Shown in pieces: positions 5,575-28,201 of a stretch of DNA of 64,000 bases (position 1 is its first letter; every line of letters starts with the position of its first letter). The position numbers and the translations under genes were made by a program. The notes below the pieces were generated by a model. It saw only the letters and a program-made list of their open reading frames with translations, did not search any database and was not told the DNA's origin. This DNA comes from Escherichia phage Av-05. Location: the sequence record KM190144; one strand, 5' to 3'.

Positions 5575-5597
5575 TAAAAACTATTTTCGGAATGGGT

Positions 5598-6567: not shown

Positions 6568-6572
6568 ATATT

Positions 6573-6648: not shown

Positions 6649-6716
6649 AAACTGTACTGGCCCAACAACCACGATTGGAGGGTATCGTCACACATCAAAG
6701 CCAGTACAGATTTAGT

Positions 6717-6806
6717 TGGTGTGCCGTGATAGAGTCGAACTACCCGAGTCCCTTTCGAGACAGGAGATTTACAGTCTCCCCCGCTACCCCTACGGTCTAA
6801 CGACAC
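6717..6806 (-). tRNA. tRNA-Tyr (GUA), class II, CCA encoded
   Basis: Acceptor GTGTCGT/ACGGCAC, anticodon stem GGAGA/TCTCC loop CTGTAAA, long variable arm, T-loop TTCGACT. Confidence 0.75.
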
Positions 6807-6807
6807 A

Positions 6808-7155: not shown

Positions 7156-7174
7156 TTTAAAACCCCACTTAATG

Positions 7175-7203
7175 ATATTATCAAATAAAAACATATCTGT
7201 CAA
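7175..7203 (-). promoter_or_regulatory. Sigma70-like promoter (TTGACA-17-TAATAT)
   Basis: Minus strand -35 TTGACA at plus 7198-7203, 17-nt spacer, -10 TAATAT at plus 7175-7180. Confidence 0.6.
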
Positions 7204-7240
7204 GTGGTATTTTAACATATTTACCAAGAAATTGAAAGTT

Positions 7241-17415: not shown

Positions 17416-17640
17416 GAAAACTCGGTTCTCGATCGAAAATCCATTTTCCAGATCGTATTTGCTCCTTACGGAGCAAATTTTTTAGGGCTACAAATTTCAG
17501 TTCTCGATCGGTTTTTCGATTTCAAAATCGTATTTGTTTTTTCTTGCGAAAAATTTCGCACGCTCGGTTCTCGATCGAGTTTTCAAAATCGAAATCGTAT
17601 TTGCTCTATAGCGCGAAAAAATTTTTATGGGTATCGTAAT
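17416..17640. repeat. Three tandem units of about 75 bp, each with CGGTTCTCGATCG and ATCGTATTTG motifs plus a hairpin
   Basis: CGGTTCTCGATCG at about 17421, 17500, 17573; ATCGTATTTG at about 17451, 17527, 17601; the 13-mer recurs at about 27756. Confidence 0.6.
17458..17483 (+). terminator. Rho-independent terminator-like hairpin inside repeat unit A
   Basis: TTGCTCC-TTAC-GGAGCAA followed by TTTTTT. Confidence 0.5.
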
Positions 17641-18012: not shown

Positions 18013-18276
18013 CTATTTATTTTCTTGCCAGGTTAGGACACCTAACCAGAAATGGCAATCACCTTTCGCCCATTGTGGTATATTGCTTTCTTTCCCACCT
18101 TCTCGCGCCCAGGAATAACCGCCCGTGTAACTTTGCAATTGATAACTATCCTCGACCTTATAATCTGACAGGCTGAGAACTGTTTCTACCTTTAAGCCCG
18201 TTGCGCTCGCTACCTGGTGGATAGTTCCCCCTTGCCAGCCTAACGCGTGCATAAGGTGCAATGTGGTAGTGGTCAT
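18013..18276 (-). CDS. Hypothetical protein (87 aa)
   Basis: ORF track; GAGGA RBS 8 nt upstream of ATG. Confidence 0.4.
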   Translation of the reverse strand: MTTTTLHLMHALGWQGGTIHQVASATGLKVETVLSLSDYKVEDSYQLQSYTGGYSWAREGGKESNIPQWAKGDCHFWLGVLTWQENK

Positions 18277-18376
18277 TTTTTCTATTCCTCTGTTAGTTGG
18301 TTAGTTGTTAAAATTATATCTATAACCAGCCAGGTTAGCAAGGAAAATAAAAGAGAAAAATTTTCAAAAAATAGTA

Positions 18377-18406
18377 TTGACAGCGGGGGTAGTATAGATC
18401 TACTAT
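18377..18406 (+). promoter_or_regulatory. Sigma70-like promoter (TTGACA-18-TACTAT)
   Basis: Motif reading upstream of 18464 gene. Confidence 0.45.
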
Positions 18407-18463
18407 GTGCACATCAAGGCGATACACCGCCACCAACCAACTAACTTAAAGGGGTGAATTAAT

Positions 18464-19087
18464 ATGAAAACCATCGTTAACGCTGAGAATGTATCTTTCG
18501 ATAAGTTGAACGACGCACAAAAAGAAAAAGCCATTGACCTTATTCGTGAGCGTGAAAGAGAAAGTAATAATGATTTCTTTGCTGATAGTGTCATTGAAGA
18601 CTATAAGAATGACATTTTGCCAGAGTACGGGATCGATGACGCGGTCATCTATTGGTCAGGATTCTGGTCGCAAGGTGACGGCGCATCAATCAGCACTGAC
18701 CGCGTGGATATTGAAAAATTTTTAAGAAAAGTTAAATCTTTAACAAAATTCAGAGGTATCCGCAAACTATTTGATCTCGGTGGATATAGTCCGCTATATG
18801 CAAGCATTGAGCGGGATAATTACAGCCGCTACCACCATGAAAATACTGTTTCCGGTTACGTTGAAACTATGTATTGCGGAGATTTAACGGCAAAGCAGGA
18901 AGATTTGGCCGATCAGCTTGAAAACTTGTTGACTGAAACGATCCGCGATCTATCTTGTAAACTCTACAGAGATCTAGAATCTGCTTATGATAGCCAGTTT
19001 ACAGATGAAGCCATCACAGAATCAATCGAGGCTAATGAGTATCGCTTTGATATTGATGAGGATGGAAAAGTTTACGCTATCGCTTAA
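18464..19087 (+). CDS. Hypothetical early protein (207 aa; conserved-looking YWSGFWSQGDGA segment)
   Basis: ORF track; RBS AAAGGGGTGA. Confidence 0.55.
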   Translation: MKTIVNAENVSFDKLNDAQKEKAIDLIRERERESNNDFFADSVIEDYKNDILPEYGIDDAVIYWSGFWSQGDGASISTDRVDIEKFLRKVKSLTKFRGIRKLFDLGGYSPLYASIERDNYSRYHHENTVSGYVETMYCGDLTAKQEDLADQLENLLTETIRDLSCKLYRDLESAYDSQFTDEAITESIEANEYRFDIDEDGKVYAIA

Positions 19088-19174
19088 AAGTACTTGCATT
19101 CAGTTTTAAAATAGTATTATACTACTACAACAGGACGGGGGATCGCTCCCCGTCACATTCAGGAGATCACCAAA

Positions 19175-19387
19175 ATGGCTAATATCCGTTCCTTGTTAAA
19201 AAATGCAACTCAAGTATTATTTTCTGACCACGACCATTTCAATAAAGACATTACAGGCGTAAAGAATATCAAAGAGGTAAAAAGTGTCATGGGTATTTAT
19301 TGCAACATGAAAAAGGTAGGCACTTTCGGTAATAAAGTATTATATCAGGCAGGTGACTACAATTTTACTTTGACAATTATTTCATAA
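19175..19387 (+). CDS. Hypothetical early protein (70 aa)
   Basis: ORF track; AGGAGA RBS; preceded by promoter-like TTGCAT..TATTAT and leader hairpin. Confidence 0.5.
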   Translation: MANIRSLLKNATQVLFSDHDHFNKDITGVKNIKEVKSVMGIYCNMKKVGTFGNKVLYQAGDYNFTLTIIS

Positions 19388-19452
19388 AACCACTTGCAAA
19401 GTTATATAGCTCTGTTATACTACCAACATTGATAAACGAGAGGTAAATAAAA

Positions 19453-19809
19453 ATGGCAATCCAGGCAATCCTGTTAGAACTTACAGACTTCCGTAATACT
19501 GTAAAAAATTTAACCAAAAAACAGGTTGATAATATTATCAAGGGATACCGCGACAAGATTAAAGATCTTCCGCTTAAACGCGATCAACATGCAGCTAATA
19601 TAATGCTTGATGCTATGATTAAAAAGATGATTCAATGTGATCTCACTCTGGCTTATGAATACGCTGGCGACCTCTTTGTAACGTATAATAAGCCCGTACC
19701 AGGTATGAGCACCACGGAAGAATTGCACGCCCTAAACCTGCGGCAAGATGCTTGGGATAATATGCGCCGCGTTATGGTGTGGGTAGAAAGCGGTAAAATT
19801 TATCAATAA
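19453..19809 (+). CDS. Hypothetical early protein (118 aa)
   Basis: ORF track; RBS GAGAGGTAAAT. Confidence 0.5.
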   Translation: MAIQAILLELTDFRNTVKNLTKKQVDNIIKGYRDKIKDLPLKRDQHAANIMLDAMIKKMIQCDLTLAYEYAGDLFVTYNKPVPGMSTTEELHALNLRQDAWDNMRRVMVWVESGKIYQ

Positions 19810-19815
19810 AAATAG

Positions 19816-19843
19816 TTGTCTTTTAGTTATGCCGTGATAGAAT
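19816..19843 (+). promoter_or_regulatory. Promoter (TTGTCT-16-TAGAAT) with inverted repeat CCGTG..CACGG over the -10; copy 1 of a duplicated about 50-bp element
   Basis: Near-identical element at 24039-24084. Confidence 0.5.
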
Positions 19844-19884
19844 GCACGGCATAGATAAAAGAAACTACTTATCAGAGTTTAAAA

Positions 19885-20103
19885 ATGAAAAATATCACGG
19901 GTAAAACCGAACTATTAAAGGCGCTTTCTGTTGGTGAGTCAGCTTTATGGGTATGTGAAAAAGATCGCCTTCCATCGCGGGAGATGGCCTTATTTAAGGC
20001 TTTATCTCTGAAACTGAAAATTAAATTATCCCAAAAATTAGCGGTTGTTGCCGCACCTGGAGAAACCGCTTTCAGTGTCGTAATGGTTAAAAGGGTAGAA
20101 TAG
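19885..20103 (+). CDS. Hypothetical early protein (72 aa)
   Basis: ORF track; weak RBS. Confidence 0.4.
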   Translation: MKNITGKTELLKALSVGESALWVCEKDRLPSREMALFKALSLKLKIKLSQKLAVVAAPGETAFSVVMVKRVE

Positions 20104-20123
20104 AAAAAAAATTAAAAATTATC

Positions 20124-20152
20124 TTGACAAGCAAAACAGCAAAAATTAAACT
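20124..20152 (+). promoter_or_regulatory. Sigma70-like promoter (TTGACA-17-TAAACT)
   Basis: Motif reading. Confidence 0.5.
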
Positions 20153-20190
20153 TACACACAATTAAGCAAACAATATTAACGAGGTAAATC

Positions 20191-20562
20191 ATGAAACAGT
20201 TAACCACTCACCAAAAAACAATGATCCGCAAATATGTTTTAAATTCTCTTTCTTTTGATATTGAATCTGATCTCAAACAAGATCAGATCAAAGAATTAAA
20301 AAACCGCTTTGAATCTGAATACTGGTATGATAGCAACAAGAAACGCTATCAAAATGATAAAGTACAAGGCCTTAAAAATTGGTTGCAAGGCTTGCCGAGT
20401 GGTGTTAATATCGATTTCACTTATTACGATATTGGGCAACGCCTTAAAGATCTTGGAATCATTACCGAGACGACCAGAGAAAGCACTATTGAAAAATATA
20501 TCTCTGAGTGGTGGGATCTGGTAGCGCCGTTTTATGCTGGGCTAATCGTCAACTTAAAATAA
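20191..20562 (+). CDS. Hypothetical early protein (123 aa)
   Basis: ORF track; RBS ACGAGGTAAAT. Confidence 0.5.
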   Translation: MKQLTTHQKTMIRKYVLNSLSFDIESDLKQDQIKELKNRFESEYWYDSNKKRYQNDKVQGLKNWLQGLPSGVNIDFTYYDIGQRLKDLGIITETTRESTIEKYISEWWDLVAPFYAGLIVNLK

Positions 20563-20639
20563 TTATTGTAAACTATCTAAAACTGGTTTAAATTAAAGGG
20601 GTGAATTTAATCACCCCCAACATGAAAGAGGTTAATCAA

Positions 20640-20951
20640 ATGAATACTTATTTTTCTACTCGTTCACTTGCACGCATTGCAGCGAAAGAAACAGGCGGTA
20701 AAGTTTTGGATAATGGTAAAGATGCACCGATCGGCAAACGTTGGCAGGTTATCCCTAGTAATGTTGGTGAAGCCGTCCAAGATACAGCAAAACAACGTGC
20801 CGAGATGGAAAGTAAACCAGTTGTTACCTTGTCCATTGGTAAGCGTAGCAATGTAGCGAATCAAGCCCGTAAGGCGCTTTATTACGCCATCAATTACGCA
20901 AAAAATAATAAAACTGTTCCGGTTTATCATAAGCGTTCATTTAAGAAATAA
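20640..20951 (+). CDS. Hypothetical early protein (about 103 aa)
   Basis: Track ORF trimmed to ATG after AAAGAGGTTAAT. Confidence 0.5.
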   Translation: MNTYFSTRSLARIAAKETGGKVLDNGKDAPIGKRWQVIPSNVGEAVQDTAKQRAEMESKPVVTLSIGKRSNVANQARKALYYAINYAKNNKTVPVYHKRSFKK

Positions 20952-21020
20952 TTTTTAATTAGATAAAAAGCGCCCTAAGAAATGGGCGCTAAACAAAAAC
21001 ACTTAAAGAGGTAAATTATT

Positions 21021-21371
21021 ATGGCTAATATTGTAGAAATTTTCAAAAAAGCCGTAGAAAATAAAAACGCTGAATTGTCTTTAGTATCTCTGGATTTTAC
21101 TGATGTTTACGGTAACACTTATTTTGTTTATGAGCTTGGTTTTACTTGTCCTGAGTTAAAAACATGGGAAACGTTGCATAAATCTCGCGATCTGCAATAT
21201 GGATACGGGGATCATGTTCTTTATGTTGCAATGAGAGACCTTGCAACCATTACCGGGATGGGGTCGGACGCTGTATATATTACCCGTTGGGCACACGATA
21301 ATGATTTAAAAATCAGTGTCAACAAGCGCACCAATTGCCGCAAAAAAGATCTAAAACAGTTCATCGCCTAA
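21021..21371 (+). CDS. Hypothetical early protein (116 aa)
   Basis: ORF track; RBS AAAGAGGTAAAT. Confidence 0.5.
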
Positions 21372-21387
21372 CCATCCTGGTAGCTGT

Positions 21388-21738
21388 ATGATTCAGTTTT
21401 ATATAATCATCGCGGCGCTTGCAATTTATTCAGGATTGCATAAAAGAATATTTAGGTTGATTCTCTGGTTTTATTACGAATATAGGATCAGAATGGTTTA
21501 TCACTATATCGAGTACTCTTTTCACGGTGAGAGATACCACACAAGGAGATCCGGCCCATTAAATGACCTTGAGGGAAACGGCTTAATCTGTGAGGTCAAA
21601 AAGCGGGGCGGGAAAATTCTTTACCACAAAGAGGGCACTTTTGATTATATTGATGAGGTGATTAATTTTAGGCAACAAGCCGTAAAAGATCACGCCAGCA
21701 AAATAATCAACGGCAGCTATAAACGCAAAGCGGGGTAA
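21388..21738 (+). CDS. Hypothetical membrane-anchored protein (116 aa)
   Basis: ORF track; hydrophobic N-terminus; weak RBS. Confidence 0.4.
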   Translation: MIQFYIIIAALAIYSGLHKRIFRLILWFYYEYRIRMVYHYIEYSFHGERYHTRRSGPLNDLEGNGLICEVKKRGGKILYHKEGTFDYIDEVINFRQQAVKDHASKIINGSYKRKAG

Positions 21739-21930
21739 TATGCGGAATTTTGAAAAAATTGTTAAAGCTAATCGCCTGGAATACGGGGAAACAGACGGAA
21801 AAACGGGAACGGGTAGGCAAACGCCATAAACCTAAAAAGGTTCCGAAATTGTGGTGTCCTGATAAATACGATCACAAATTAAAACAGCGTATCGCTGAGA
21901 AACAGCGATTAAACGCAAGATAACAGACAA

Positions 21931-21953
21931 GGCCGGAACTATCCGGCCTTTTT
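21931..21953 (+). terminator. Rho-independent terminator
   Basis: GGCCGGA-ACTA-TCCGGCC followed by TTTTT. Confidence 0.6.
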
Positions 21954-22079
21954 AATGCTTGGTGGCGTTCAGAACGATTAAAACTCTTAAAGATGGCCCA
22001 ATGTACCACAAAATAAAATAGCTCGTTAGAGAGTGTTTTAGAGGCCTTAAAATCGATCCGAAAATATCTATAAAAATGC

Positions 22080-22108
22080 TTGCAATGCTTTCCCGCTATC
22101 GTTATAGT
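22080..22108 (+). promoter_or_regulatory. Sigma70-like promoter (TTGCAA-17-TATAGT)
   Basis: Motif reading. Confidence 0.5.
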
Positions 22109-22141
22109 GTTCCCAACAAGCAAGCAAACGAGGTAACGGCA

Positions 22142-22279
22142 ATGATTGAGATTCTTAAAAATCCTATTTTGTGTGGTATGGTTGTTTCTGTGTCACTTCC
22201 GATCGTGCTGTTATTCGTTAGCGAAATAGATGATTTTATCTTTAATAAAAGACTTGCCAACAAGTCAAAAACAAATTAA
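22142..22279 (+). CDS. Small membrane protein (about 45 aa)
   Basis: Track ORF trimmed to ATG after CGAGGTAACGGCA; hydrophobic core. Confidence 0.4.
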   Translation: MIEILKNPILCGMVVSVSLPIVLLFVSEIDDFIFNKRLANKSKTN

Positions 22280-22316
22280 TATAGTATCAGCATACTAACT
22301 AGCGAGGTGATTTAAT

Positions 22317-22574
22317 ATGTTTGGTTTTATTGTTCTATCTTGTTCTCTTTCTGTCACTGCTGCAAAGGTAGAATGTAACTACACTGTAAAAGAGACTTTT
22401 AATGATGAAAAGTCTTGCAATGTATACGAAAATAATTATAAACTAGGAGACGGGGAGCAGTTCGGGATCTGTGATGAATTAAAGGACGGTATGAAGAAAG
22501 GCGATAAGCGCCCGATCCTGGTCCTGAAAAATAATTTTTCTAATCATGTTGATCAATTTTTAAGAGGTGAATAA
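22317..22574 (+). CDS. Small secreted protein (85 aa, signal peptide)
   Basis: ORF track; N-terminal signal-like segment; RBS GCGAGGTGAT. Confidence 0.5.
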   Translation: MFGFIVLSCSLSVTAAKVECNYTVKETFNDEKSCNVYENNYKLGDGEQFGICDELKDGMKKGDKRPILVLKNNFSNHVDQFLRGE

Positions 22575-22575
22575 A

Positions 22576-22863
22576 ATGTTTGAAGTTTTCGCGGGTATGT
22601 GTTTTTATACAGCTTTGGCAATTCGTCAGTGTGATGATTATATCGTTGAATCATACGATGATCAGCTGACTTGCGAAATAGTCGCTAATGACTACGGCAA
22701 AAAAGATCGCTGGATTAATCCGGCTTGTATACCATCCCCAGAGGCAGAAGCCATGCCAGAAGGGGAAGAGGTGACGGATCCGGTTGTAGCGGTATCCTCC
22801 TTTTTCGTTGACAACCTGGACGCCCAAGAATTGATCAACATGTATGTAAAAAATCAAAAATAA
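22576..22863 (+). CDS. Small secreted/membrane protein (about 95 aa)
   Basis: Track ORF trimmed to ATG after AAGAGGTGAATAAA. Confidence 0.45.
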   Translation: MFEVFAGMCFYTALAIRQCDDYIVESYDDQLTCEIVANDYGKKDRWINPACIPSPEAEAMPEGEEVTDPVVAVSSFFVDNLDAQELINMYVKNQK

Positions 22864-22866
22864 CGC

Positions 22867-22894
22867 TTGACGTTGATTTGTGCCGCTTTATAAT
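22867..22894 (+). promoter_or_regulatory. Sigma70-like promoter (TTGACG-16-TATAAT) with flanking inverted repeat GCCGC..GCGGC
   Basis: Motif reading. Confidence 0.55.
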
Positions 22895-22953
22895 AGGCGG
22901 CATAGGTAAGCGAAAGCGGATCTAAATCTTAAACAAGTTGAGAGAGGTAAATC

Positions 22954-23274
22954 ATGGAACAAGCGAATAAATTTTTCTTCCTGGCTGGGATCGTGGATAA
23001 TGTGAAATGTGATTTCAAGCGTGAAAATGATAAGACGTTACTCACTTTCTGCGATATGCTTGATCATGAGAATGCCGACACGTTACGAATCGAGATCCGC
23101 ACGATAACCAATATCGACAACGTAAGCCGTTTAATTTATAAATCTCACTCTATAGCTTACAGCCTGGAAACATCAACAAGCTGCATACAACAAGGTGAGA
23201 GCTTGCCCATTCTAAATAGTGCCGATGTATTTGGCGCGGTTGTTGCAATTGTAAATGATGTTTTTTCTCGTTGA
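22954..23274 (+). CDS. Hypothetical early protein (106 aa)
   Basis: ORF track; RBS GAGAGAGGTAAAT. Confidence 0.5.
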   Translation: MEQANKFFFLAGIVDNVKCDFKRENDKTLLTFCDMLDHENADTLRIEIRTITNIDNVSRLIYKSHSIAYSLETSTSCIQQGESLPILNSADVFGAVVAIVNDVFSR

Positions 23275-23288
23275 TGGGTGTTAATATT

Positions 23289-23393
23289 ATGTTAGAGAAT
23301 ATCGTCTTTTGGTGTGGTGTCGTTCTTGCTGTTATGGTTGGCATCCTGGCGACGATGGCGAATATTGTGATCTCAAGCAACCTGACAGGATAA
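23289..23393 (+). CDS. Candidate small membrane peptide (34 aa, MLENIVFWCGVVLAVMVGILATMANIVISSNLTG)
   Basis: Not in ORF track (below length cutoff); ATG with GGGTG upstream; single predicted TM helix. Confidence 0.3.
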   Translation: MLENIVFWCGVVLAVMVGILATMANIVISSNLTG

Positions 23394-23412
23394 AAATTTT
23401 TAAAAAAGAGTA

Positions 23413-23440
23413 TTGACATACTACCGGCATATGGTATTAT
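23413..23440 (+). promoter_or_regulatory. Sigma70-like promoter with extended -10 (TTGACA-16-TGgTATTAT)
   Basis: Motif reading. Confidence 0.6.
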
Positions 23441-23491
23441 TTACCACATGAAGGGGAGAGATTGACTCTCCCCACTAACGAAAGGTAAATA

Positions 23492-23761
23492 ATGATGAAC
23501 ATTTCTAAAACTACTTTTAACTTTGCTAAAAAGCGTGGAATTGAGCTTGAGCTAATCGAAGCGGATGATCGCCTAGTCCTGGCTTTTTATGAGGCTAAAA
23601 ATGAATGTGAATGGATGTTCTCTTATAATGTTAATCATGATTGCCTAACATGGCGCGGTAATATCTATCTTTCAAACGAGGTAAAAGAGGAGTTACCCGC
23701 CACGATCACGACTGAGAAAAAACTACGCGAGGTTATTGACTTCATCTCTAAAAATATCTAA
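23492..23761 (+). CDS. Hypothetical early protein (89 aa)
   Basis: ORF track; preceded by GGGGAGAG..CTCTCCCC leader hairpin and RBS GAAAGGTAAAT. Confidence 0.5.
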   Translation: MMNISKTTFNFAKKRGIELELIEADDRLVLAFYEAKNECEWMFSYNVNHDCLTWRGNIYLSNEVKEELPATITTEKKLREVIDFISKNI

Positions 23762-23807
23762 GATTACAGGGAAAGGGGCGAAAGCCCCTGCCACAGAAGG
23801 TAATAAA

Positions 23808-24032
23808 ATGGATAAATTAACAAAGATTGAACATGAAGTTATGGATCTTGCACGGGCTAATAAGCCATTTGACAAGATTTACTCTAAGGAGAATAAAGAG
23901 ATCCTGAAAGATCTCACGCAAGGTCAAAAAGACGGCTTACGCCGCTTATATCGTGAGGCTTATGACTATTTTCGTTGGTGGGAAATAGAAGAGGCTAACG
24001 CGAAAATAGAAGGCCTGGAAAATTTAGTATAA
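23808..24032 (+). CDS. Hypothetical early protein (about 75 aa)
   Basis: Track ORF trimmed to ATG after GAAGGTAATAAA. Confidence 0.45.
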   Translation: MDKLTKIEHEVMDLARANKPFDKIYSKENKEILKDLTQGQKDGLRRLYREAYDYFRWWEIEEANAKIEGLENLV

Positions 24033-24038
24033 AAGTAG

Positions 24039-24066
24039 TTGACTTTTACTTATACCGTGATAGAAT
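24039..24066 (+). promoter_or_regulatory. Promoter (TTGACT-16-TAGAAT) with CCGTG..CTCGG inverted repeat; copy 2 of duplicated element
   Basis: Near-identical to 19816-19860. Confidence 0.5.
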
Positions 24067-24127
24067 GCTCGGTATAGATAAGAGAGACGGCACAAGCCAT
24101 TGATTAAACTTAAAGAGGTAAATTATT

Positions 24128-24529
24128 ATGAATACTTACAAAACTGTTTTTAATTTCGACAACTTCAAAGCTATCTGCGACGATCAGATCGGTAAGTGCC
24201 GTAAAGAAAAAGGATTTTATAAATCTTATAAATTGATTGCTTTGGTTGATGACGAGATCACCGAAGTGGCAACGCTCAACCTGTACCACACTAACGCTAC
24301 TAACTACGCTTGCTTGTGGATGCACTGGGCTAATATCAAAGGTTGGGATCATGGATACGCTGGCGGGAAAGCAAGCGGATACGGTTACAACAGGGAGGAG
24401 GCCGCGATCCATGTCGCAGCTAATAAACTCGGTATAACTGGCAAATGGTTTAACGGTGAACAATTCCTAGATGCAATGGCACGTCATTTTGATATGAAAG
24501 GCGCGAAGGTTATCTGCTGCAACGCGTGA
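24128..24529 (+). CDS. Hypothetical early protein (133 aa)
   Basis: ORF track; RBS AAAGAGGTAAAT. Confidence 0.5.
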   Translation: MNTYKTVFNFDNFKAICDDQIGKCRKEKGFYKSYKLIALVDDEITEVATLNLYHTNATNYACLWMHWANIKGWDHGYAGGKASGYGYNREEAAIHVAANKLGITGKWFNGEQFLDAMARHFDMKGAKVICCNA

Positions 24530-24576
24530 TCATTCAATAGCGGGGAGTATTCCCCGCTTATAGATAGGGCATAATC

Positions 24577-25035
24577 ATGATTTACGATCTTAAATATTAC
24601 GACGAATTGAGCAATGCAGCACAATTAACGGCCCGTGTAAATATTATAGCAGATCTGGAGAATCACCACAGAAAGCGCATAGCTCAGACTCTCGCCAGTT
24701 TTAAAAATAATCCCCATAAAGTGATTAATGACACGAAGCACATTCAACGCCTCAGAAACGGCGCAAAGGCGCTTTATAGTGTACGTCATTACGGGGATGA
24801 TTACCTTATACGGTTTATTCGTGATAATCGTTTGATCTTTACCCCTGGGGGTAGCTATATAACCTATAGCAACGGCTTTATGATGATTATTAAGGGTAAG
24901 GAATACATCCCCACGGCCTCACAACAAAAAGCATTGAGAGAGCTTTACATATCCGTTAATGACCGTGGGCCGTCATACCATGATTGGTTATATAGAATGC
25001 ACAACAAAATAAAAATTTTTATGATCCCCGCTTGA
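24577..25035 (+). CDS. Hypothetical early protein (152 aa)
   Basis: ORF track; leader hairpin GCGGGGAG..TCCCCGC upstream. Confidence 0.5.
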   Translation: MIYDLKYYDELSNAAQLTARVNIIADLENHHRKRIAQTLASFKNNPHKVINDTKHIQRLRNGAKALYSVRHYGDDYLIRFIRDNRLIFTPGGSYITYSNGFMMIIKGKEYIPTASQQKALRELYISVNDRGPSYHDWLYRMHNKIKIFMIPA

Positions 25036-25113
25036 CACTCACACAAAAACGCCTTATTATCTATCTCATAAGACGGGGAGCGGTTCCCCGTCACACTTAA
25101 GAGGTAAATAATC

Positions 25114-25503
25114 ATGCGTAACCTGGTTCATGTTTCCAACGTTGAAAAATTCCAATCTTTACAGGCTATCGTAAACGATACAGCACCTTTCATCGTTAAA
25201 GGTTTGATCGCAAGAATGCAACAGAAAAAACCTCAAATCTGGGCTAATTATTGCCTTGATAATGATGATCAGGCCGCCGCTTTCATGGTTGGCGAACTGC
25301 TGGGAAGTGTAGGGAACATGCTGCCGGAAAACATCGCAGAAGAGATCGCCTATCGTTATAATACGGCGATCATTTACCAGGAGGTTGTACAATTTAACCT
25401 GATGGATGACGACGAACAACAGGATCAGGAAACATTCTGGGAGTATGCCGACCGCCAAGCCGCTTTTGATGAGCGGTTAGAGATGTACTATAACGAATGG
25501 TAA
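25114..25503 (+). CDS. Hypothetical acidic early protein (129 aa)
   Basis: ORF track; leader hairpin GACGGGGAG..TCCCCGTC and RBS AAGAGGTAAAT. Confidence 0.5.
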   Translation: MRNLVHVSNVEKFQSLQAIVNDTAPFIVKGLIARMQQKKPQIWANYCLDNDDQAAAFMVGELLGSVGNMLPENIAEEIAYRYNTAIIYQEVVQFNLMDDDEQQDQETFWEYADRQAAFDERLEMYYNEW

Positions 25504-25509
25504 GAGACA

Positions 25510-25537
25510 GGCCGCCACCATGCGGCCTTTAATTTTT
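25510..25537 (+). terminator. Rho-independent terminator
   Basis: GGCCGC-CACCAT-GCGGCC followed by TTTAATTTTTT. Confidence 0.6.
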
Positions 25538-25541
25538 TCTA

Positions 25542-25569
25542 TTGACAATATCATACTAACCTTTAAAAT
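25542..25569 (+). promoter_or_regulatory. Sigma70-like promoter (TTGACA-16-TAAAAT)
   Basis: Motif reading. Confidence 0.5.
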
Positions 25570-25600
25570 GTTCTTTGTTAAGTATCTTTAAAGGTGTAAC

Positions 25601-25780
25601 ATGTTTCAATCAATCATTGATGTTCTATCAGTCGCTAACAACGTGATGAACGTTATTACAATGATTAAACTTGTTGCGTGGCTTGTTTCTGGGGATTATC
25701 GCTATATCAAATGGCGCAAGCCAACAACAAAAGATGTAGTGAAGATCTTATTTGAAGCAATGACAGAATATTATCTATAA
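25601..25780 (+). CDS. Candidate small membrane protein (about 59 aa, MFQSIIDVLSVANNVMNVITMIKLVAWLVSG...)
   Basis: Not in ORF track; ATG after AAAGGTGTAAC; lies between a promoter and the next promoter. Confidence 0.35.
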   Translation: MFQSIIDVLSVANNVMNVITMIKLVAWLVSGDYRYIKWRKPTTKDVVKILFEAMTEYYL

Positions 25781-25793
25781 CGATTATTTTTTG

Positions 25794-25822
25794 TTGACAT
25801 CTTGGGATTGCTCTTTTACTAT
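25794..25822 (+). promoter_or_regulatory. Sigma70-like promoter (TTGACA-17-TACTAT)
   Basis: Motif reading. Confidence 0.5.
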
Positions 25823-25876
25823 TAACGTGACTGGAAGGCCGTAACTGGCATGGCCTGATTTGAAAGGTGAATTAAT

Positions 25877-26077
25877 ATGAAACGTTTTACTTATGGCGTT
25901 GTTGGCGGTTCTGTTTCAAACCGGTTTTACAATACCGAGCGTGGTGCTAAAAATGCCGCTACCCGTGAACATGGCAATAGTGTGAATTTACAAGTCGGTT
26001 ACATTAGCAAAATTAGCGGTATGTTTATTCCGGTTGCTCAACGCGGTATGTATTGCATAGGCTGGATGCCAATGTAA
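25877..26077 (+). CDS. Hypothetical early protein (66 aa)
   Basis: ORF track; RBS GAAAGGTGAAT. Confidence 0.45.
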   Translation: MKRFTYGVVGGSVSNRFYNTERGAKNAATREHGNSVNLQVGYISKISGMFIPVAQRGMYCIGWMPM

Positions 26078-26092
26078 AAAGGAGTAATAAAA

Positions 26093-26284
26093 ATGGATGT
26101 ACCACAAGTTAGAAAGGTATTAGCAGCGTTACGCTATCACAATTATAGCAAGGTGAAGAATGATCCTGATTATGTTGATTCAAGCCTCGAGGAAGACACA
26201 TTGCAAGCCATAAGCTATATGCAGGAATTGCTTAAGCGTATGACAGAGAAGAATAGATCTGATTATATAGGTGAAGAGATTTAA
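26093..26284 (+). CDS. Hypothetical early protein (63 aa)
   Basis: ORF track; RBS AAAGGAG. Confidence 0.45.
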   Translation: MDVPQVRKVLAALRYHNYSKVKNDPDYVDSSLEEDTLQAISYMQELLKRMTEKNRSDYIGEEI

Positions 26285-26317
26285 TCTCTTACAACCGCAC
26301 AAAGTAAAATCGTACAA

Positions 26318-26344
26318 GGGGCGCATTAAGCGCCCTTTCTTTTT
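26318..26344 (+). terminator. Rho-independent terminator at end of early block
   Basis: GGGGCGC-ATTAA-GCGCCC followed by TTTCTTTTT. Confidence 0.6.
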
Positions 26345-26719
26345 GCCCCAGCAAGTATGATAAGTTTTATCTATCAAAACACCACACAGAACAAAAATGA
26401 ATAAAACGCGGTATCGAGCTAAACGAGGGTGGGCAATACAACGGCAAGGCTAAACACTTAAGGCCGTTACAACGCGATTTAGGCCGCTTAAAATCGATCT
26501 TTACTATAAACAACCTCCACAAAACGACCAAAACGACACAACATGACGTAAATGATAACCATTCTCAATAACATAAGAATTTTTATGCAATTTTAGTGAA
26601 TATCTATTTAAATGATAATGACTCTCAACAACAAACCAACACGACCGAAGCGATTTAATCGCCTATCACAAAATAAACCATTTGTAAAGAACAATTTAAA
26701 AGCTGCGTAGGTGGCGCGA

Positions 26720-26960
26720 CCGTAGGGAGCGACACAATAACGCAGTAGTAACCCCTCCCCCACTCCTTACAGTCGCCCGGTATCGGGGCAGCGTTATTGT
26801 GTCGCTACGCGACAACGCGTTAACAATTTTGCAAGATTTTATTAATAATTTAACTGTTATAATTCCACATAGTCGCTACGCGATTAAGCGCGATGCGCTT
26901 AACCTGCAAAGCAGGCTTCTTTGCAAAATTGTTAACCTACTGCGTTATTGTGTCCGGTAC
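26720..26960. repeat. Inverted and direct repeats built on GCGTTATTGTGTC / GTCGCTACGCGA
   Basis: AGCGACACAATAACGC (about 26729) vs GCGTTATTGTGTCGCT (about 26791), third copy at about 26941; GTCGCTACGCGA twice. Confidence 0.5.
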
Positions 26961-27837
26961 GGATTAGTTACATATGTAACTAACAACTAACGTTGCTAAA
27001 TTGTGTCCATGAATGGATGAGGAATAATATTCCTCCCAGCTATCGCTGCAATATTGTGTTGTAAAACGATTAGCTGAGAATCAGCTAACCCGTGAAACGG
27101 GCTAAATTATTCTCATTAATCCCCCGATTATTCCTCAGTAAATCACTTGTTTATCACGTTTAATCAGCCTGTTTAACAGGCCAGTAATGTGATGATCATT
27201 AACCACGATTATTGTTTGTATTATCCAGAATAAACCGCTTATCATGTTGTTATTATGTTGCCAAGTGCCTGAAATGCCAGATCAATTTGGTCACTGCGTG
27301 ATTATGATTGCGACAATAATTTGTTTGTGATTTGCATCTATTCATAACAAAATTGCTATTATGTTGCTATTCTATTGTTAAACACCCTTTTATCTTTTCC
27401 CTTGCATTTTCGTTATATTTGATTTGTTATCGTTTTCTTTCATTTTGTTTCGTTATTGAAAACAAGAATTATTATCATCTATGTGCCTTAACAGGCTGGC
27501 GGGTCTGTTAGTGGTCTGGTTGTCTGGCCTGTTATTGTTAGCTTGCTTATTGTTGTGTGGTGTATGTATCAGTTAGCTAGTACATTGTGTGGTGCGCATA
27601 ACGTGTATTATGTTAAATCAGGTGGCCCACAAGTAAGGCCGTATGTCAATAGCAATAAGTGCTGTGTGTGGTAGGACTGGCCTATCAGTGTGCCCCTTTG
27701 TTGTGTGATGCTCTCAGTGTGTGACCTGTCTGCTGTGTGCGCTGCGTCAAATCTCGAGCGGTTCTCGATCGCAATAGCTGTAAGATATTTTGTAAAGATT
27801 CGTAGTTTTTCTTGACACCCGCAATCGTCCGTCTAAC

Positions 27838-27893
27838 CCTTCAGAGATAGATCCTTCAGAGATTTATCTGGGCTTTTTACCCTTCAGAGATAG
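27838..27893. repeat. Three tandem copies of CCTTCAGAGAT(A/T)
   Basis: CCCTTCAGAGATAGAT, CCTTCAGAGATTTAT, CCCTTCAGAGATAGAT read directly. Confidence 0.55.
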
Positions 27894-28201
27894 ATACATG
27901 GCAAATTCGCACAAATTTACCACCTGCCATGCCACGTCACTAATCTCGCAAGGATATTTCTGTAAGTGAACCTGCACACAATGCAGCACGCATCTTGTTG
28001 TGTGGGGAGGGTGGGGGTAATAATCAGGAACTGGTCTGACAGTGATAACGCATTGGATAAAACTCTGCGGGGCTTGGTGATGATATTTGTGTGGGTAGAT
28101 GATGATGGATAAGAGATAAGACACTTGTCTCCGACAGGGGTGGGGTGTGGAAAAGAAATGGGCCTGTTGACCCATTGCGATATAGAAATGAAATGGTTAT
28201 C

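What the first reader, a model, noticed from the sequence alone, without database searches (positions are those of the whole stretch)
18377..26344. Early-gene block with stereotyped promoter, leader-hairpin and RBS architecture, including a duplicated promoter-operator cassette
About 25 small ORFs are each preceded by a near-consensus sigma70 promoter, and many by a G/C hairpin (GACGGGGAG...CTCCCCGTC family at about 19130, 23448, 24548, 25067) and the RBS context AGAGGTAAAT-N-ATG. A roughly 50-bp promoter element with an inverted repeat over its -10 occurs twice (19816-19860, 24039-24084), implying a shared repressor or activator site. None of the proteins has a recognised function.
Basis: seen in the sequence. 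Interest (0 to 1): 0.5.

Follow-up and report, generated by a model that had tools for sequence, protein, structure and literature searches.

The report
Promoter–stem-loop cassettes in phage early genes
A block of 22 small genes of unknown function in an rV5-like E. coli phage is driven by repeated promoter, RNA hairpin and ribosome-site cassettes that also mark where genes have been swapped between phages; this kind of element is already described in T4-type phages, so the finding is real but only moderately new.

Summary
The block (18277-26344) belongs to an Avunavirus-like Vequintavirinae (rV5-like) coliphage. It carries 22, not 25, small plus-strand genes, and the 20 tested fall in PHROG families of unknown function. 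About 15 have a sigma70-type promoter; only 8 are near-consensus (>=10/12; 2.3 expected).

Twelve of the 15 most stable local hairpins are intergenic, in three classes:
- Leader stem-loops that start 9-12 nt after the -10 (about +3 to +6 of their own mRNA) and end 18-23 nt before the ATG.
- Stem-loops that straddle the -10. This is the 'duplicated operator'; it has a third, diverged copy at 22876.
- Three ordinary T-tailed terminators.

Stems covary, both against relative TH18 and across Klebsiella and Salmonella phage copies. They contain G.U but no A.C pairs, so they are sense-strand RNA structures, not a double-stranded operator. The same cassettes precede unrelated genes in Vequintavirinae and Stephanstirmvirinae, and homology breakpoints fall on -35 hexamers.

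This matches the promoter-early stem-loop (PeSL) cassettes of T4-type phages, here in another phage lineage. Hairpin function (5' mRNA protection or insulation versus attenuation) and early timing are inferred, not shown.

The parts
18277..26344 (+). Whole block: 22 small plus-strand genes. It runs from a divergent promoter region on the left to the last T-tailed terminator on the right.
18377..18406 (+). P1 promoter, TTGACA-18-TACTAT (10/12), with an AT-rich upstream tract; precedes g1
19094..19123 (+). P2 promoter, TTGCAT-18-TATACT (8/12); precedes the g2 leader hairpin
   Evidence: chosen over the 19084 alternative because its spacing to the hairpin fits the family
19134..19154 (+). Class A leader stem-loop GACGGGGGATCGCTCCCCGTC. 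It starts 10 nt after the -10 and ends 20 nt before the g2 ATG.
   Evidence: z -3.7; substitutions versus TH18 lie in the loop or the closing pair
19394..19421 (+). P3 promoter, TTGCAA-16-TATACT with TG extension (9/12). Homology to Stephanstirmvirinae phages ends on its -35.
19784..19865 (+). Duplicated cassette, copy 1: last codons of g3, AT-rich tract, P4 and the stem-loop
   Evidence: D1: 82 nt, 78%
19816..19843 (+). P4 promoter, TTGTCT-16-TAGAAT with TG extension (9/12)
19827..19854 (+). Class B stem-loop TTATGCCGTG-ATAGAATG-CACGGCATAG with the -10 in its loop. The predicted start of P4's own transcript (about 19850) lies inside the 3' arm.
   Evidence: z -5.7
20124..20152 (+). P5 promoter, TTGACA-17-TAAACT (10/12); no hairpin
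20566..20594 (+). P6, a weak promoter, TTGTAA-17-TAAATT (8/12; TTGAAA in TH18)
20598..20617 (+). Stem-loop GGGGTGA-ATTTAA-TCACCCC, 3 nt after the P6 -10 and 22 nt before the g6 ATG. It also scores as terminator-like on the minus strand.
   Evidence: z -3.2
20969..20990 (+). Intercistronic stem-loop before g7 with no convincing promoter. It reads as a terminator on the minus strand.
   Evidence: z -5.2
21929..21950 (+). Class C: ordinary intrinsic terminator (stem followed by TTTTTAAT) after g9
   Evidence: z -5.6
22080..22108 (+). P10 promoter, TTGCAA-17-TATAGT (9/12)
22254..22282 (+). P11 promoter, TTGCCA-17-TAATAT (9/12), inside the 3' end of g10
22867..22894 (+). P13 promoter, TTGACG-16-TATAAT (11/12)
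22876..22907 (+). Class B stem-loop, third and diverged copy (TGCCGCT...AGGCGGCA) with TATAAT in the loop. Its closest match is the Salmonella phage SSBI34 copy.
   Evidence: z -5.4
23413..23440 (+). P15 promoter, TTGACA-16-TATTAT with TG extension (11/12). Its AT-rich tract is 90% identical to that of P1.
   Evidence: (D12)
23453..23473 (+). Class A leader stem-loop GGGGAGAGATTGACTCTCCCC, 12 nt after the -10 and 18 nt before the g15 ATG
   Evidence: z -4.7; two double compensatory changes plus one G.U versus TH18
23736..23764 (+). P16 promoter, TTGACT-17-TAAGAT (9/12), inside the 3' end of g15
23770..23792 (+). Class A leader stem-loop (core AGGGGC-GAAA-GCCCCT, 23774-23789), 9 nt after the -10 and 18 nt before the g16 ATG
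   Evidence: z -3.2
24007..24088 (+). Duplicated cassette, copy 2: last codons of g16, AT-rich tract, P17 and the stem-loop
   Evidence: D1
24039..24066 (+). P17 promoter, TTGACT-16-TAGAAT with TG extension (10/12)
24050..24077 (+). Class B stem-loop TTATACCGTG-ATAGAATG-CTCGGTATAG. Compared with copy 1 it has a compensatory G-C to A-T change and one U-U mismatch.
   Evidence: (z -3.0)
24539..24558 (+). Intercistronic stem-loop AGCGGGGA-GTAT-TCCCCGCT, 18 nt before the g18 ATG, with no promoter
   Evidence: z -4.5
25032..25060 (+). P19 promoter, TTGACA-17-TATTAT (11/12)
25072..25092 (+). Class A leader stem-loop GACGGGGAGCGGTTCCCCGTC, 11 nt after the -10 and 21 nt before the g19 ATG
   Evidence: z -4.2; compensatory changes in the TH18, J-01 and IMG/VR orthologues
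25509..25528 (+). Class C: ordinary intrinsic terminator (stem followed by TTTAATTTTTT) after g19
   Evidence: z -4.0
25542..25569 (+). P20 promoter, TTGACA-16-TAAAAT (11/12). The 91%-identical module shared with phage JEP1 begins exactly at its -35.
25794..25822 (+). P21 promoter, TTGACA-17-TACTAT (10/12). Collinearity with TH18 breaks just after its -35 (25801); TH18 has an extra gene there.
25836..25856 (+). Marginal leader stem-loop before g21 (z -1.65). It is longer and more stable in JEP1.
26316..26338 (+). Class C: ordinary intrinsic terminator (stem followed by CTTTTTG) that closes the block
   Evidence: z -3.4
18464..19087 (+). g1 (207 aa), phrog_5162, unknown function
19175..19387 (+). 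g2 (70 aa), phrog_12266, unknown. It is shared as a single-gene module with Stephanstirmvirinae phages.
19453..19809 (+). g3 (118 aa), phrog_7352. The 3' half (19570-19818) is about 90% identical to part of a Justusliebigvirus gene, so g3 is chimeric.
19885..20103 (+). g4 (72 aa), phrog_5988, unknown; weak SD
20191..20562 (+). g5 (123 aa), phrog_11100, unknown
20640..20951 (+). g6 (103 aa), phrog_8127, unknown
21021..21371 (+). g7 (116 aa), phrog_6246, unknown
21388..21738 (+). g8 (116 aa, or 81 aa from the ATG at 21493 as annotated in TH18), phrog_7903, unknown
21750..21923 (+). g9 (57 aa from TTG; start uncertain), phrog_8176, unknown
22142..22279 (+). g10 (45 aa), phrog_7482, unknown
22317..22574 (+). 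g11 (85 aa), phrog_12257, unknown
22576..22863 (+). g12 (95 aa), phrog_8255, unknown
22954..23274 (+). g13 (106 aa), phrog_7366, unknown
23289..23393 (+). g14 (34 aa; 40 aa from the TTG at 23271 as annotated in TH18); not tested against the family libraries
23492..23761 (+). g15 (89 aa), phrog_6147, unknown. One borderline Pfam hit (TPK_B1_binding, 23 bits against a cut-off of 22) is treated as spurious.
23808..24032 (+). g16 (74 aa), phrog_24380, unknown
24128..24529 (+). g17 (133 aa), phrog_7028, unknown. It is 40% identical to the gene that follows the same cassette in Klebsiella phage 05F01.
24577..25035 (+). g18 (152 aa), phrog_8549, unknown
25114..25503 (+). g19 (129 aa), phrog_15485, unknown
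25601..25780 (+). g20 (59 aa); not tested against the family libraries; shared with JEP1
25877..26077 (+). g21 (66 aa), phrog_7744, unknown
26093..26284 (+). g22 (63 aa), phrog_9599, unknown

Best explanation
The block is the hyperplastic, presumably early, small-gene region of an rV5-like (Vequintavirinae, Avunavirus-like) coliphage. Its intergenic DNA is built from portable composite regulatory cassettes of the kind named PeSL (promoter-early stem-loop) in T4-type phages.

Each cassette reads, in order: an AT-rich tract, a host sigma70 promoter, a G-run/C-run stem-loop, an A/C-rich spacer, a strong GAGGT-type Shine-Dalgarno and the ATG.

SHOWN
- The promoters are enriched and oriented with the genes.
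- The stem-loops are under selection as sense-strand RNA structures.
- The stem-loops occupy two fixed registers.
- The same cassettes precede unrelated genes in several phage genera.
- Homology between genomes breaks at the cassettes.

INFERRED MECHANISM
1. Host RNA polymerase fires at many strong promoters right after infection, so most small genes have their own start.
2. In class A cassettes the hairpin begins about +3 to +6 of the cassette's own transcript. It acts as a near-terminal 5' stem-loop that slows 5'-end-dependent decay (RppH and RNase E). It also gives every gene the same leader, a local hairpin followed by an open A-rich RBS, whatever lies upstream.
3. In class B cassettes the 5' arm lies upstream of the cassette's own start site. 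The hairpin therefore exists only in RNA reading through from the upstream gene, where it acts as an attenuator or 3'-end protector. This separates the upstream message from the promoter it runs into.
4. The 60-100 nt of sequence shared between cassettes gives homologous recombination a foothold. Single genes are then gained, lost and swapped together with their own expression signals.
For: IDENTITY. The nearest records are TH18, 24-2-1, 18-1-2 and 19-1-2 at 93%. TH18 is filed under Vequintavirinae and 24-2-1 under Avunavirus.

PROMOTERS.
- Eight plus-strand sites at >=10/12 (2.3 +/- 1.6 expected) and four at >=11/12 (0.22 expected), all intergenic.
- The 25 nt upstream of the -35 are 76% AT, against 61% for the block.

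HAIRPINS.
- 12 of the 15 strongest are in the 20.6% of the block that is intergenic.
- z-scores are -3 to -5.7.

SELECTION ON THE STEMS.
- Window versus TH18 substitution rates: promoter hexamers 1.4%, SD to ATG 2.9%, stems 5.9%, loops 15.7%, other intergenic 9.3%, CDS 6.4%.
- 7 of the 8 stem pairs touched by substitutions stay paired, and 4 of them are double compensatory changes.
- The orthologous g19 leader in four phages shows two compensatory pairs.
- Class B stem in 10 copies: 99% paired, 5 of 10 pairs changed on both sides, 0 of 500 shuffles reach this, and slid controls give 26-51% paired.

RNA LEVEL, SENSE STRAND.
- The class B stem has many G.U/U.G cells and no A.C.
- In an unbiased scan, the single non-Watson-Crick pair in class A stems was G.T in 4 of 4 distinct cases. 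All such hairpins upstream of an SD and ATG were on the gene strand.

FIXED GEOMETRY.
- The hairpin starts 9-12 nt after the -10 and ends 18-23 nt before the ATG. This holds in the window, TH18, JEP1, ESCO32, J-01 and an IMG/VR contig.
- Predicted leaders are 37-47 nt with a local hairpin and a mostly open SD-AUG region.
- No class A or B hairpin is followed by a U-tract, whereas three ordinary T-tailed terminators exist in the same block.

PORTABILITY.
- The identical hairpin GGCGGGAAATGGTTTCCCGCC precedes unrelated genes in J-01, ESCO32 and L005.
- The class B cassette sits between at least 5 unrelated downstream and at least 6 unrelated upstream genes in Escherichia, Klebsiella and Salmonella phages.
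- It is 84% identical in nucleotides where the downstream proteins are only 40% identical.

JUNCTIONS.
- High-identity modules end or begin on the -35 hexamers of P3, P4, P20 and P21.
- TH18 carries an extra gene flanked by promoter copies.

LITERATURE.
- The PeSL definition is an AT-rich tract, a sigma70 promoter, a stem-loop often made of polyG then polyC and commonly overlapping the -10, then the SD and ATG. PeSLs lie in hyperplastic regions and act as recombination joints (PMC2839356; PMC4122927).
- RNase E prefers 5'-monophosphate ends and scans from the 5' terminus (PMC9943677). Literature on 5'-terminal stem-loop stabilisers is listed in PMC3997798.
Against: - No transcription start sites, 3' ends, half-lives or timing data exist for this phage group, and the literature searches found none. 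'Early', '+3 to +6' and every function of the hairpins are therefore inferences.
- With 3-6 unpaired nucleotides predicted at the 5' end, RppH could still act: PMC3997798 reports that the B. subtilis enzyme needs only 2-3 unpaired nucleotides. Simple hairpins may be weak obstacles to RNase E scanning, because the obstacle named in the abstract of PMC9943677 is base pairing coaxial with the enzyme's path. Protection could therefore be modest.
- Six of 15 promoters have no hairpin, and two hairpins (20969, 24539) have no promoter. The cassette is thus a loose composite rather than a fixed unit.
- Two hairpins (20598, 20969) also read as minus-strand terminators.
- Breakpoints of diverged (65-80% identity) matches at gene ends are expected anyway, because intergenic DNA diverges faster. 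Only the ~84-91% identical modules (JEP1, ESCO32/J-01, tuntematon) and the TH18 indel count as recombination evidence, and they are few.
- Covariation rests on few independent lineages: 4 near-identical close relatives, and 10 class B copies of which some are near-duplicates.
Confidence: 0.65

Rival explanations
1. All the non-T-tailed hairpins are chiefly transcription attenuators or terminators, as originally proposed for PeSLs. They stop or dampen RNA polymerase arriving from upstream promoters. Each small gene is then expressed mainly from its own promoter, and early transcription does not pile up or spill over.
For: - In RB49 one PeSL stem-loop reduced downstream lacZ as strongly as rrnB T1 (PMC2839356).
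- The hairpins are intergenic, G/C-rich and stable.
- The class B hairpin can form only in read-through RNA (and the geometry), which fits a role directed at upstream transcripts. For class B this reading is part of the best explanation.
Against: - No class A or B hairpin is followed by a U-tract. All are followed by A-rich sequence, while the block's three true terminators have T-runs.
- Class A hairpins lie downstream of their own start site at a fixed 9-12 nt from the -10. A terminator there would also abort the cassette's own strong promoter, and a terminator for upstream RNA would not need a fixed distance to the -10 or to the ATG.
Confidence: 0.2
2. The inverted repeat across the -10 (19827-19854, 24050-24077, 22876-22907) is a DNA operator for a dimeric phage or host regulator. 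That regulator would switch these three promoters off or on together.
For: - The palindrome is centred on the -10.
- TGCCG-N12-CGGCA has the same spacing in two copies.
- The element is well conserved across phages.
Against: - Half-site sequences differ among the three copies in this genome and among phages, while pairing is kept through double changes in 5 of 10 pairs.
- There are many G.U/U.G pairs and no A.C, an asymmetry with no meaning for double-stranded DNA.
- TGCCG-N12-CGGCA at up to 1 mismatch is not itself rare: at least 2 matches occurred in 11 of 100 shuffles.
- No DNA-binding domain was found in the 20 block proteins tested.
Confidence: 0.07
3. The leader hairpins are recognition or processing sites for a phage-encoded RNA-binding protein or nuclease. 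This could be a translational repressor or a processing enzyme that times or shuts off early gene expression after transcription.
For: - The hairpins have a fixed position just upstream of the SD.
- The initial transcribed sequence (TTAYCACRTA) and the 'ACA' after many stems are conserved.
- Many proteins of unknown function are available as candidates.
Against: - Loop and stem sequences differ widely among cassettes in one genome (loops ATCGC, ATTGA, GCGGT, GAAA, GTAT). Loops are the fastest-evolving class (15.7%). Both argue against sequence-specific recognition.
- Stems of 6-8 bp are too short for RNase III (established knowledge).
Confidence: 0.06
4. The hairpins matter mainly at the DNA level, as recombination hot spots or targets of a site-specific enzyme. 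Their RNA forms would be incidental.
For: - In RB49 and phi1, crossovers mapped within or next to the stem-loop (PMC2839356).
- Mosaic junctions lie at the cassettes.
Against: - The observed junctions fall on the -35 and AT-rich tract rather than in the stems.
- The G.U versus A.C strand asymmetry points to one strand only.
- The fixed distance to the ATG is unexplained by this reading.
Confidence: 0.02

Closest known systems
PeSL (promoter-early stem-loop) cassettes of T4-type phages RB49, phi1, T4/PST and KVP40/nt-1 (Arbiol et al. 2010, PMC2839356; Comeau et al. 2014, PMC4122927)
   Same: - An AT-rich tract upstream of the -35 and a sigma70-consensus promoter.
- A stable stem-loop, often with G-runs then C-runs, that commonly overlaps the -10 (our class B).
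- The SD and start codon at the 3' end.
- Concentration in a variable region of small genes of unknown function.
- Cassettes sit at insertion, deletion and replacement junctions between related genomes.
   Different: - The host lineage is different (Vequintavirinae and Stephanstirmvirinae, not T4-type). No paper in the searched library reports PeSLs there.
- A second, dominant register exists here (class A), in which the hairpin is a fixed 9-12 nt downstream of the -10 and hence inside the cassette's own leader.
- No U-tract follows the stems.
- Nothing has been tested experimentally here: neither terminator activity nor mini-circles.
Sigma70-like promoters with UP elements reported in Vequintavirinae genomes (rV5: PMC3606486; Certrevirus CB7, CR3, CR8 and CR9: PMC7344957)
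   Same: Consensus host-type promoters with AT-rich upstream elements and some extended -10 regions. In Certrevirus they are concentrated in a region of short hypothetical ORFs described as the likely early region.
   Different: Those papers list promoters and rho-independent terminators separately. They do not describe promoter-linked stem-loops, their covariation, or their role as mosaic junctions.
5'-terminal stabilising stem-loops of E. coli and phage mRNAs, such as the ompA and papA 5' hairpins and the T7 gene 10 leader GGGAGACCACAACGGTTTCCC (from my own knowledge; literature listed in PMC3997798)
   Same: A G-rich/C-rich hairpin within a few nucleotides of the 5' end, followed by an unstructured A-rich stretch and a strong SD. 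This is functionally a plausible model for class A.
   Different: The start sites here are only predicted, and 3-6 unpaired 5' nucleotides may weaken protection. The T7 leader is made by T7 RNA polymerase, not from sigma70 promoters. The resemblance is one of design, not of homology.
Intrinsic (rho-independent) terminators
   Same: Three elements in the block (21929, 25509, 26316) are ordinary examples, each a G/C stem followed by a T-run.
   Different: The nine class A, class B and stand-alone hairpins lack the T-run and are followed by A-rich sequence.

Membership tests
PeSL cassettes (T4-type phages) | Sigma70-consensus early promoter | tested here: met
   8 sites at >=10/12 against 2.3 expected, and 4 at >=11/12 against 0.22 expected. 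All are intergenic and on the gene strand.
PeSL cassettes (T4-type phages) | [quoted passage not shown] | tested here: met
   The 25 nt upstream of the 15 promoters are 76% AT, against 61% for the block. The P1 and P15 tracts are 90% identical.
PeSL cassettes (T4-type phages) | Stable stem-loop within the cassette, often G-run then C-run, commonly overlapping the -10 | tested here: met
   9 of 15 promoters carry one. Three overlap the -10 (class B). Four or five lie 9-12 nt downstream of the -10 (class A). z-scores are -3 to -5.7 and the stems covary.
PeSL cassettes (T4-type phages) | Shine-Dalgarno and start codon at the 3' end of the cassette | tested here: met
   AGGT occurs before 14 of 22 genes and GAGGT before 10 of 22. 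The hairpin ends 18-23 nt before the ATG.
PeSL cassettes (T4-type phages) | Located preferentially in a hyperplastic region of small genes without known function | tested here: met
   20 of 20 proteins tested are in PHROGs of unknown function. Only 4 of 465 matching phage records are collinear. Hairpin-bearing cassettes are confined to this block within the 64-kb window.
PeSL cassettes (T4-type phages) | Insertion, deletion and replacement junctions between related genomes lie at the cassettes, and the same cassette flanks unrelated genes | tested here: met
   Breaks fall at the -35 of P3, P4, P20 and P21. TH18 has an extra gene flanked by promoter copies. The class B cassette sits between unrelated genes in 6 phages. 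The sample is small.
PeSL cassettes (T4-type phages) | The stem-loop terminates or attenuates transcription from upstream | not testable with these tools
   This needs reporter or in vitro assays. From sequence alone, no U-tract follows the stems, so canonical termination is not expected.
PeSL cassettes (T4-type phages) | Recombination between cassettes yields mini-circles | not testable with these tools
   This needs inverse PCR on infected cells or virions.
PeSL cassettes (T4-type phages) | Resides in a T4-type genome (the range in which the family was described) | tested here: not met
   The window is Vequintavirinae. The claim is therefore 'works like, and is built like, a PeSL'. It is not a claim of shared ancestry with the T4-type elements.
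Intrinsic terminator | G/C-rich hairpin immediately followed by a U-tract | tested here: not met
   Class A and B hairpins are followed by A-rich sequence. The feature is met only by 21929, 25509 and 26316.
Palindromic repressor operator overlapping the -10 | Half-site sequence conserved among sites bound by one protein | tested here: not met
   The arms differ among the three copies in this genome and among phages, while pairing is preserved.
Palindromic repressor operator overlapping the -10 | Symmetry is a property of the duplex, so there should be no strand-specific G.T versus A.C bias | tested here: not met
   There are many G.U/U.G cells and no A.C cells. The only non-pair is one U-U.
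Palindromic repressor operator overlapping the -10 | A cognate DNA-binding regulator is encoded by the phage | tested here: inconclusive
   No DNA-binding Pfam domain was found in the 20 block proteins tested. The rest of the genome and small novel folds were not examined.
5'-terminal stabilising stem-loop (ompA / T7 gene 10 type) | The stem-loop lies within a few unpaired nucleotides of the transcript's 5' end | tested here: inconclusive
   With the start assumed 7 nt after the -10, 3-6 nt are unpaired. Start sites have not been mapped.
5'-terminal stabilising stem-loop (ompA / T7 gene 10 type) | Removing the stem shortens mRNA half-life | not testable with these tools
   This needs rifampicin-chase experiments with stem and compensatory mutants.

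The most novel reading that the evidence does not exclude
The class A cassette could be a dedicated, horizontally mobile 'expression plug' shared across two myovirus subfamilies that infect Escherichia, Klebsiella and Salmonella. Its near-terminal 5' hairpin would mark early phage messages as protected while host mRNA is being degraded or attacked by defence nucleases. Any newly captured gene that lands behind a cassette would then be transcribed, stabilised and translated at once. This would be a general mechanism for rapid recruitment of anti-defence genes.
Probability: 0.12. Interest if true: 0.7.

Novelty: new member of a known kind. Interest (0 to 1): 0.4.

Why it matters
rV5-like and phi92-like phages are widely used in therapy and biocontrol collections, yet their large blocks of small unknown genes are essentially unstudied.

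- Recognising these blocks as PeSL-type cassettes gives a rule for finding transcription units and gene boundaries.
- It explains why the region is mosaic at single-gene resolution.
- It extends a mechanism of modular gene shuffling from T4-type phages to other large myoviruses.
- The covariation data give a concrete set of RNA stem-loops whose role in mRNA protection or insulation can be tested directly.
- The cassettes are compact, strong expression modules that may be useful for engineering.

None of this overturns current views. It is an extension of known ideas rather than a surprise.

Tried and rejected
1. Operator reading of the inverted repeat across the -10. Rejected on covariation and G.U asymmetry.
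2. Known RNA families. Rfam at gathering threshold finds only tRNAs in the window and nothing in the block.
3. Protein function. Pfam gave only one borderline and two sub-threshold hits, treated as spurious. PHROGs gave only 'unknown function' families.
4. Homologue loci from IMG/VR viral contigs. There were none for g15 and one for g19, so the annotated phage collection was used instead.
5. My first cassette finder missed known hairpins: it tried only even lengths and picked SD-like GGAG inside stems. It was rewritten.
6. RNase III sites. Rejected because the stems are only 6-10 bp (established knowledge).
7. Treating cross-cassette 'covariation' among non-homologous class A hairpins as evidence. 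Rejected as circular; only orthologous comparisons (TH18, J-01, L005) were counted for class A.
8. Transcriptome or start-site data for Vequintavirinae or Stephanstirmvirinae. None were found in the searched library.
9. TGCCG-N12-CGGCA as a specific motif. It is not significant on its own: at least 2 matches occurred in 11 of 100 shuffles.

Full report
WHAT THE WINDOW IS. The block matches four E. coli phage records at 93% identity over 93-99% of its length: TH18, 24-2-1, 18-1-2 and 19-1-2. TH18 is filed under Vequintavirinae and 24-2-1 under Avunavirus. The window also carries a tRNA cluster on the minus strand, and the TH18 locus has NAD-salvage genes upstream of the block. Both are typical of rV5-like myoviruses. 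Of 465 phage records with any similarity to the block, only those four are collinear. Other Vequintavirus and Stephanstirmvirinae phages share only about 10-16% of it. The block is therefore a hypervariable region.

CHECKING THE OBSERVATION.
- Genes. Gene calling by ORF plus RBS gives 22 plus-strand genes between 18464 and 26284, not about 25. Twenty products were scanned. Pfam gave nothing credible, and every one hit a PHROG family labelled 'unknown function' at E-values of 1e-12 to 1e-84. They are real, conserved phage genes with no assigned role.
- Promoters. Sigma70-type promoters are enriched and strand-biased. Eight plus-strand sites match at >=10/12, against 2.3 +/- 1.6 in dinucleotide shuffles. 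Four match at >=11/12, against 0.22. All eight lie in intergenic DNA just upstream of a gene. Weaker sites (8-9/12) bring the total to about 15 of 22 genes, and seven genes have no promoter of their own. The 25 nt upstream of the -35 are 76% AT, against 61% for the block. Four promoters have a TG extension.
- RBS. The motif is stereotyped but less uniform than stated. The exact AGAGGTAAAT occurs before 5 genes, GAGGT before 10 and AGGT before 14.
- Duplication. The 'about 50 bp' duplicated element is real and is 82 nt long at 78% identity (19784-19865 and 24007-24088). Its core occurs exactly twice in 64 kb. A third, diverged copy sits at 22867-22907.

THE HAIRPINS FORM THREE CLASSES. An unbiased sliding-window fold finds 15 hairpins with dG <= -12.5 kcal/mol. 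Twelve lie in the 20.6% of the block that is intergenic. Shuffle z-scores are -3 to -5.7, except for a marginal one at 25836.
- Class C (21929, 25509, 26316) are ordinary intrinsic terminators with T-runs. They divide the block into three units.
- Class A (19134, 23453, 23770, 25072) lie downstream of a promoter. Stand-alone or intermediate cases occur at 20598, 20969 and 24539.
- Class B (19827, 22876, 24050) have the -10 hexamer in the loop.
- No class A or B hairpin is followed by a U-tract. All are followed by A/C-rich sequence leading to the SD.

THE STEMS ARE UNDER SELECTION AS SENSE-STRAND RNA.
- Against TH18, substitution rates are: promoter hexamers 1.4%, SD to ATG 2.9%, stems 5.9%, loops 15.7%, other intergenic 9.3% and coding 6.4%.
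- Of the eight stem pairs touched by substitutions, seven remain paired and four are double compensatory changes. For example, GGGGAGAG/CTCTCCCC becomes GGGGCAAG/CTTGCCTC.
- The orthologous g19 leader in the window, TH18, J-01 and an IMG/VR contig shows two compensatory pairs.
- For class B, a search with the cassette found further copies in Klebsiella phages (05F01, FKP3, KP13-26, phi1_175008) and Salmonella phage SSBI34.
- In the ten-copy alignment, 99% of cells pair and five of ten pairs change on both sides. No shuffle of 500 reaches this, and slid controls give 26-51% paired.
- That helix contains many G.U/U.G cells and no A.C.
- In an unbiased scan of class A-type stems that allowed one arbitrary internal mismatch, the odd pair was G.T in 4 of 4 distinct cases. 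All hits were on the gene strand.
- A double-stranded protein-binding palindrome would show no such strand asymmetry and would conserve half-site sequence. Here the three copies within this one genome differ in their arms.

GEOMETRY. Class A hairpins start 9-12 nt after the -10 hexamer and end 18-23 nt before the ATG. This holds in the window, TH18, JEP1 (Vequintavirus), ESCO32 and J-01 (Justusliebigvirus-like) and an IMG/VR contig. The initial transcribed sequence (TTAYCACRTA) is also conserved.
- If transcription starts 7 nt after the -10, the leaders are 37-47 nt with 3-6 unpaired 5' nucleotides, a local hairpin and a mostly open SD-AUG region.
- A fixed distance to the -10 ties the hairpin to the cassette's own start site. 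A terminator meant only for upstream RNA would not need that distance, and it would abort its own strong promoter.
- Class B is the mirror case. The predicted start (about 19850 for P4) lies inside the 3' arm, so the hairpin can exist only in RNA reading through from the upstream gene, about 17 nt after that gene's stop codon.

PORTABILITY AND MOSAICISM.
- The identical hairpin GGCGGGAAATGGTTTCCCGCC, with its promoter, precedes unrelated genes at three sites in J-01, two in ESCO32 and one in the IMG/VR contig.
- The class B cassette is flanked by at least five unrelated downstream and at least six unrelated upstream genes.
- Where the downstream genes are homologous (g17 and the Klebsiella 05F01 gene, 40% amino-acid identity), the cassette is 84% identical in nucleotides.
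- KP13-26 and FKP3 share the downstream gene but not the upstream one.
- Single genes of the block (g1, g2, the 3' half of g3, g6, g7, g8, g11-12, g13, g15, g19, g20-22) are shared with different lineages in different orders.
- The ~84-91% identical modules end or begin on -35 hexamers. g2 ends on P3 (19399), the g3 3' half ends on P4 (19818), and the JEP1 module starts on P20 (25542).
- Collinearity with TH18 breaks just after the -35 of P21 (25801), where TH18 carries an extra gene flanked by promoter copies.
- Caveat: for 65-80% identical matches, breaks at gene ends are expected from faster intergenic divergence. Only the few high-identity cases are evidence for recombination at cassettes.

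COMPARISON WITH WHAT IS KNOWN.
- The anatomy matches the PeSL cassettes of T4-type phages point by point. These have an AT-rich tract, a sigma70 consensus promoter, a stem-loop often of polyG then polyC and most commonly overlapping the -10, and the SD and ATG at the 3' end. They are located in hyperplastic regions and act as recombination joints (PMC2839356; PMC4122927).
- PeSLs have been described only in T4-type phages. No paper in the searched library links them to Vequintavirinae or Stephanstirmvirinae.
- Clustering of UP-element sigma70 promoters in a 'likely early' region of short ORFs is already reported for Certrevirus (PMC7344957), and 33 consensus promoters are reported for rV5 (PMC3606486). 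Neither paper mentions the stem-loops.
- The class A design resembles the 5'-terminal stabilising hairpins of ompA and the T7 gene 10 leader (my own knowledge; literature listed in PMC3997798). RNase E acts from the 5' end (PMC9943677).
- That same literature warns that 2-3 unpaired 5' nucleotides suffice for at least the B. subtilis RppH, and that simple hairpins may be weak obstacles to scanning. Protection may therefore be partial.

MOST LIKELY MECHANISM.
- Shown: real promoters by sequence statistics; sense-strand RNA stem-loops under selection; two fixed registers; portable cassettes; junctions at cassettes.
- Inferred: (1) early firing by host polymerase; (2) class A hairpins act as near-terminal 5' protectors and context insulators for an open RBS; (3) class B hairpins act as attenuators or 3'-end protectors of upstream messages; (4) cassette-to-cassette homologous recombination drives single-gene shuffling.
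- Confidence is 0.65 that the block is a PeSL-type cassette system with RNA-level stem-loops. The specific 5'-protection role is less certain, at roughly even odds.

VERDICT. The finding is real and well localised, and its details are partly overstated. The operator interpretation is wrong. It is a new member of a known kind: PeSL-like cassettes in an rV5-like phage, with a leader-hairpin register not emphasised before. Interest is moderate (0.4). It is useful for annotating, understanding and engineering these phages, but it would not surprise a phage genomicist.

Noticed in passing
window 26340-28200: A stretch with no credible ORFs lies right after the block's last terminator. It has nested perfect inverted repeats: 26728-26743/26791-26806, 26731-26748/26937-26954 and 26819-26834/26921-26936. 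These amount to one forward and two reverse copies of GACACAATAACGC, so alternative pairings are possible. It also has three iterons ACCCTTCAGAGATAGAT (27836, 27851, 27879) and many TTGTGTG motifs. The rV5 paper marks a 'non-coding' box on its map. This may be an origin or a regulatory RNA region.
   Followed up: partly
window 22024-22058 and 26465-26499: A roughly 35-nt motif (CGTTA...TTAGRSSCTTAAAATCGATC) recurs about 100-150 nt downstream of two of the T-tailed terminators, in otherwise non-coding DNA. The first copy is fully conserved in TH18.
   Followed up: no
window 18002-17974 (minus strand) and 18341-18313 (minus strand): A perfect-consensus promoter, TTGACA-17-TATAAT (12/12), lies on the minus strand just downstream of the 87-aa minus-strand gene 18013-18276. 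A 10/12 minus-strand promoter faces away from P1, so the left edge of the block is a divergent promoter region.
   Followed up: no
window 19453-19809 (g3): g3 is chimeric. Only its 3' half (19570-19818) is about 90% identical to the 3' part of a Justusliebigvirus gene annotated as 'membrane protein'. That half matches a separate 69-aa PHROG (phrog_29101) in addition to the full-length phrog_7352.
   Followed up: partly
window 21740-21923 (g9): The start of g9 is uncertain. The ATG at 21740 is out of frame with the ORF that ends at 21923, which starts at the TTG at 21750. TH18 annotates a 183-nt gene here. The window may carry a small indel or an unusual start.
   Followed up: no
window 17500-17623: Two adjacent 57-nt direct repeats (77% identical, spaced 67 nt) lie upstream of the block. 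They also cross-match TH18.
   Followed up: no
window 4068-9659 (minus strand): A tRNA cluster. ARAGORN genes. Rfam, including one at 6576-6648 that ARAGORN did not list.
   Followed up: no
L003 5631-5846 (ESCO32) and L011 3203-3415 (tuntematon): The 70-aa homologue of g2 is annotated in several Stephanstirmvirinae records as 'phosphoribosylpyrophosphate synthetase'. That is implausible for a protein of this size with no Pfam hit, and is probably a propagated misannotation.
   Followed up: no
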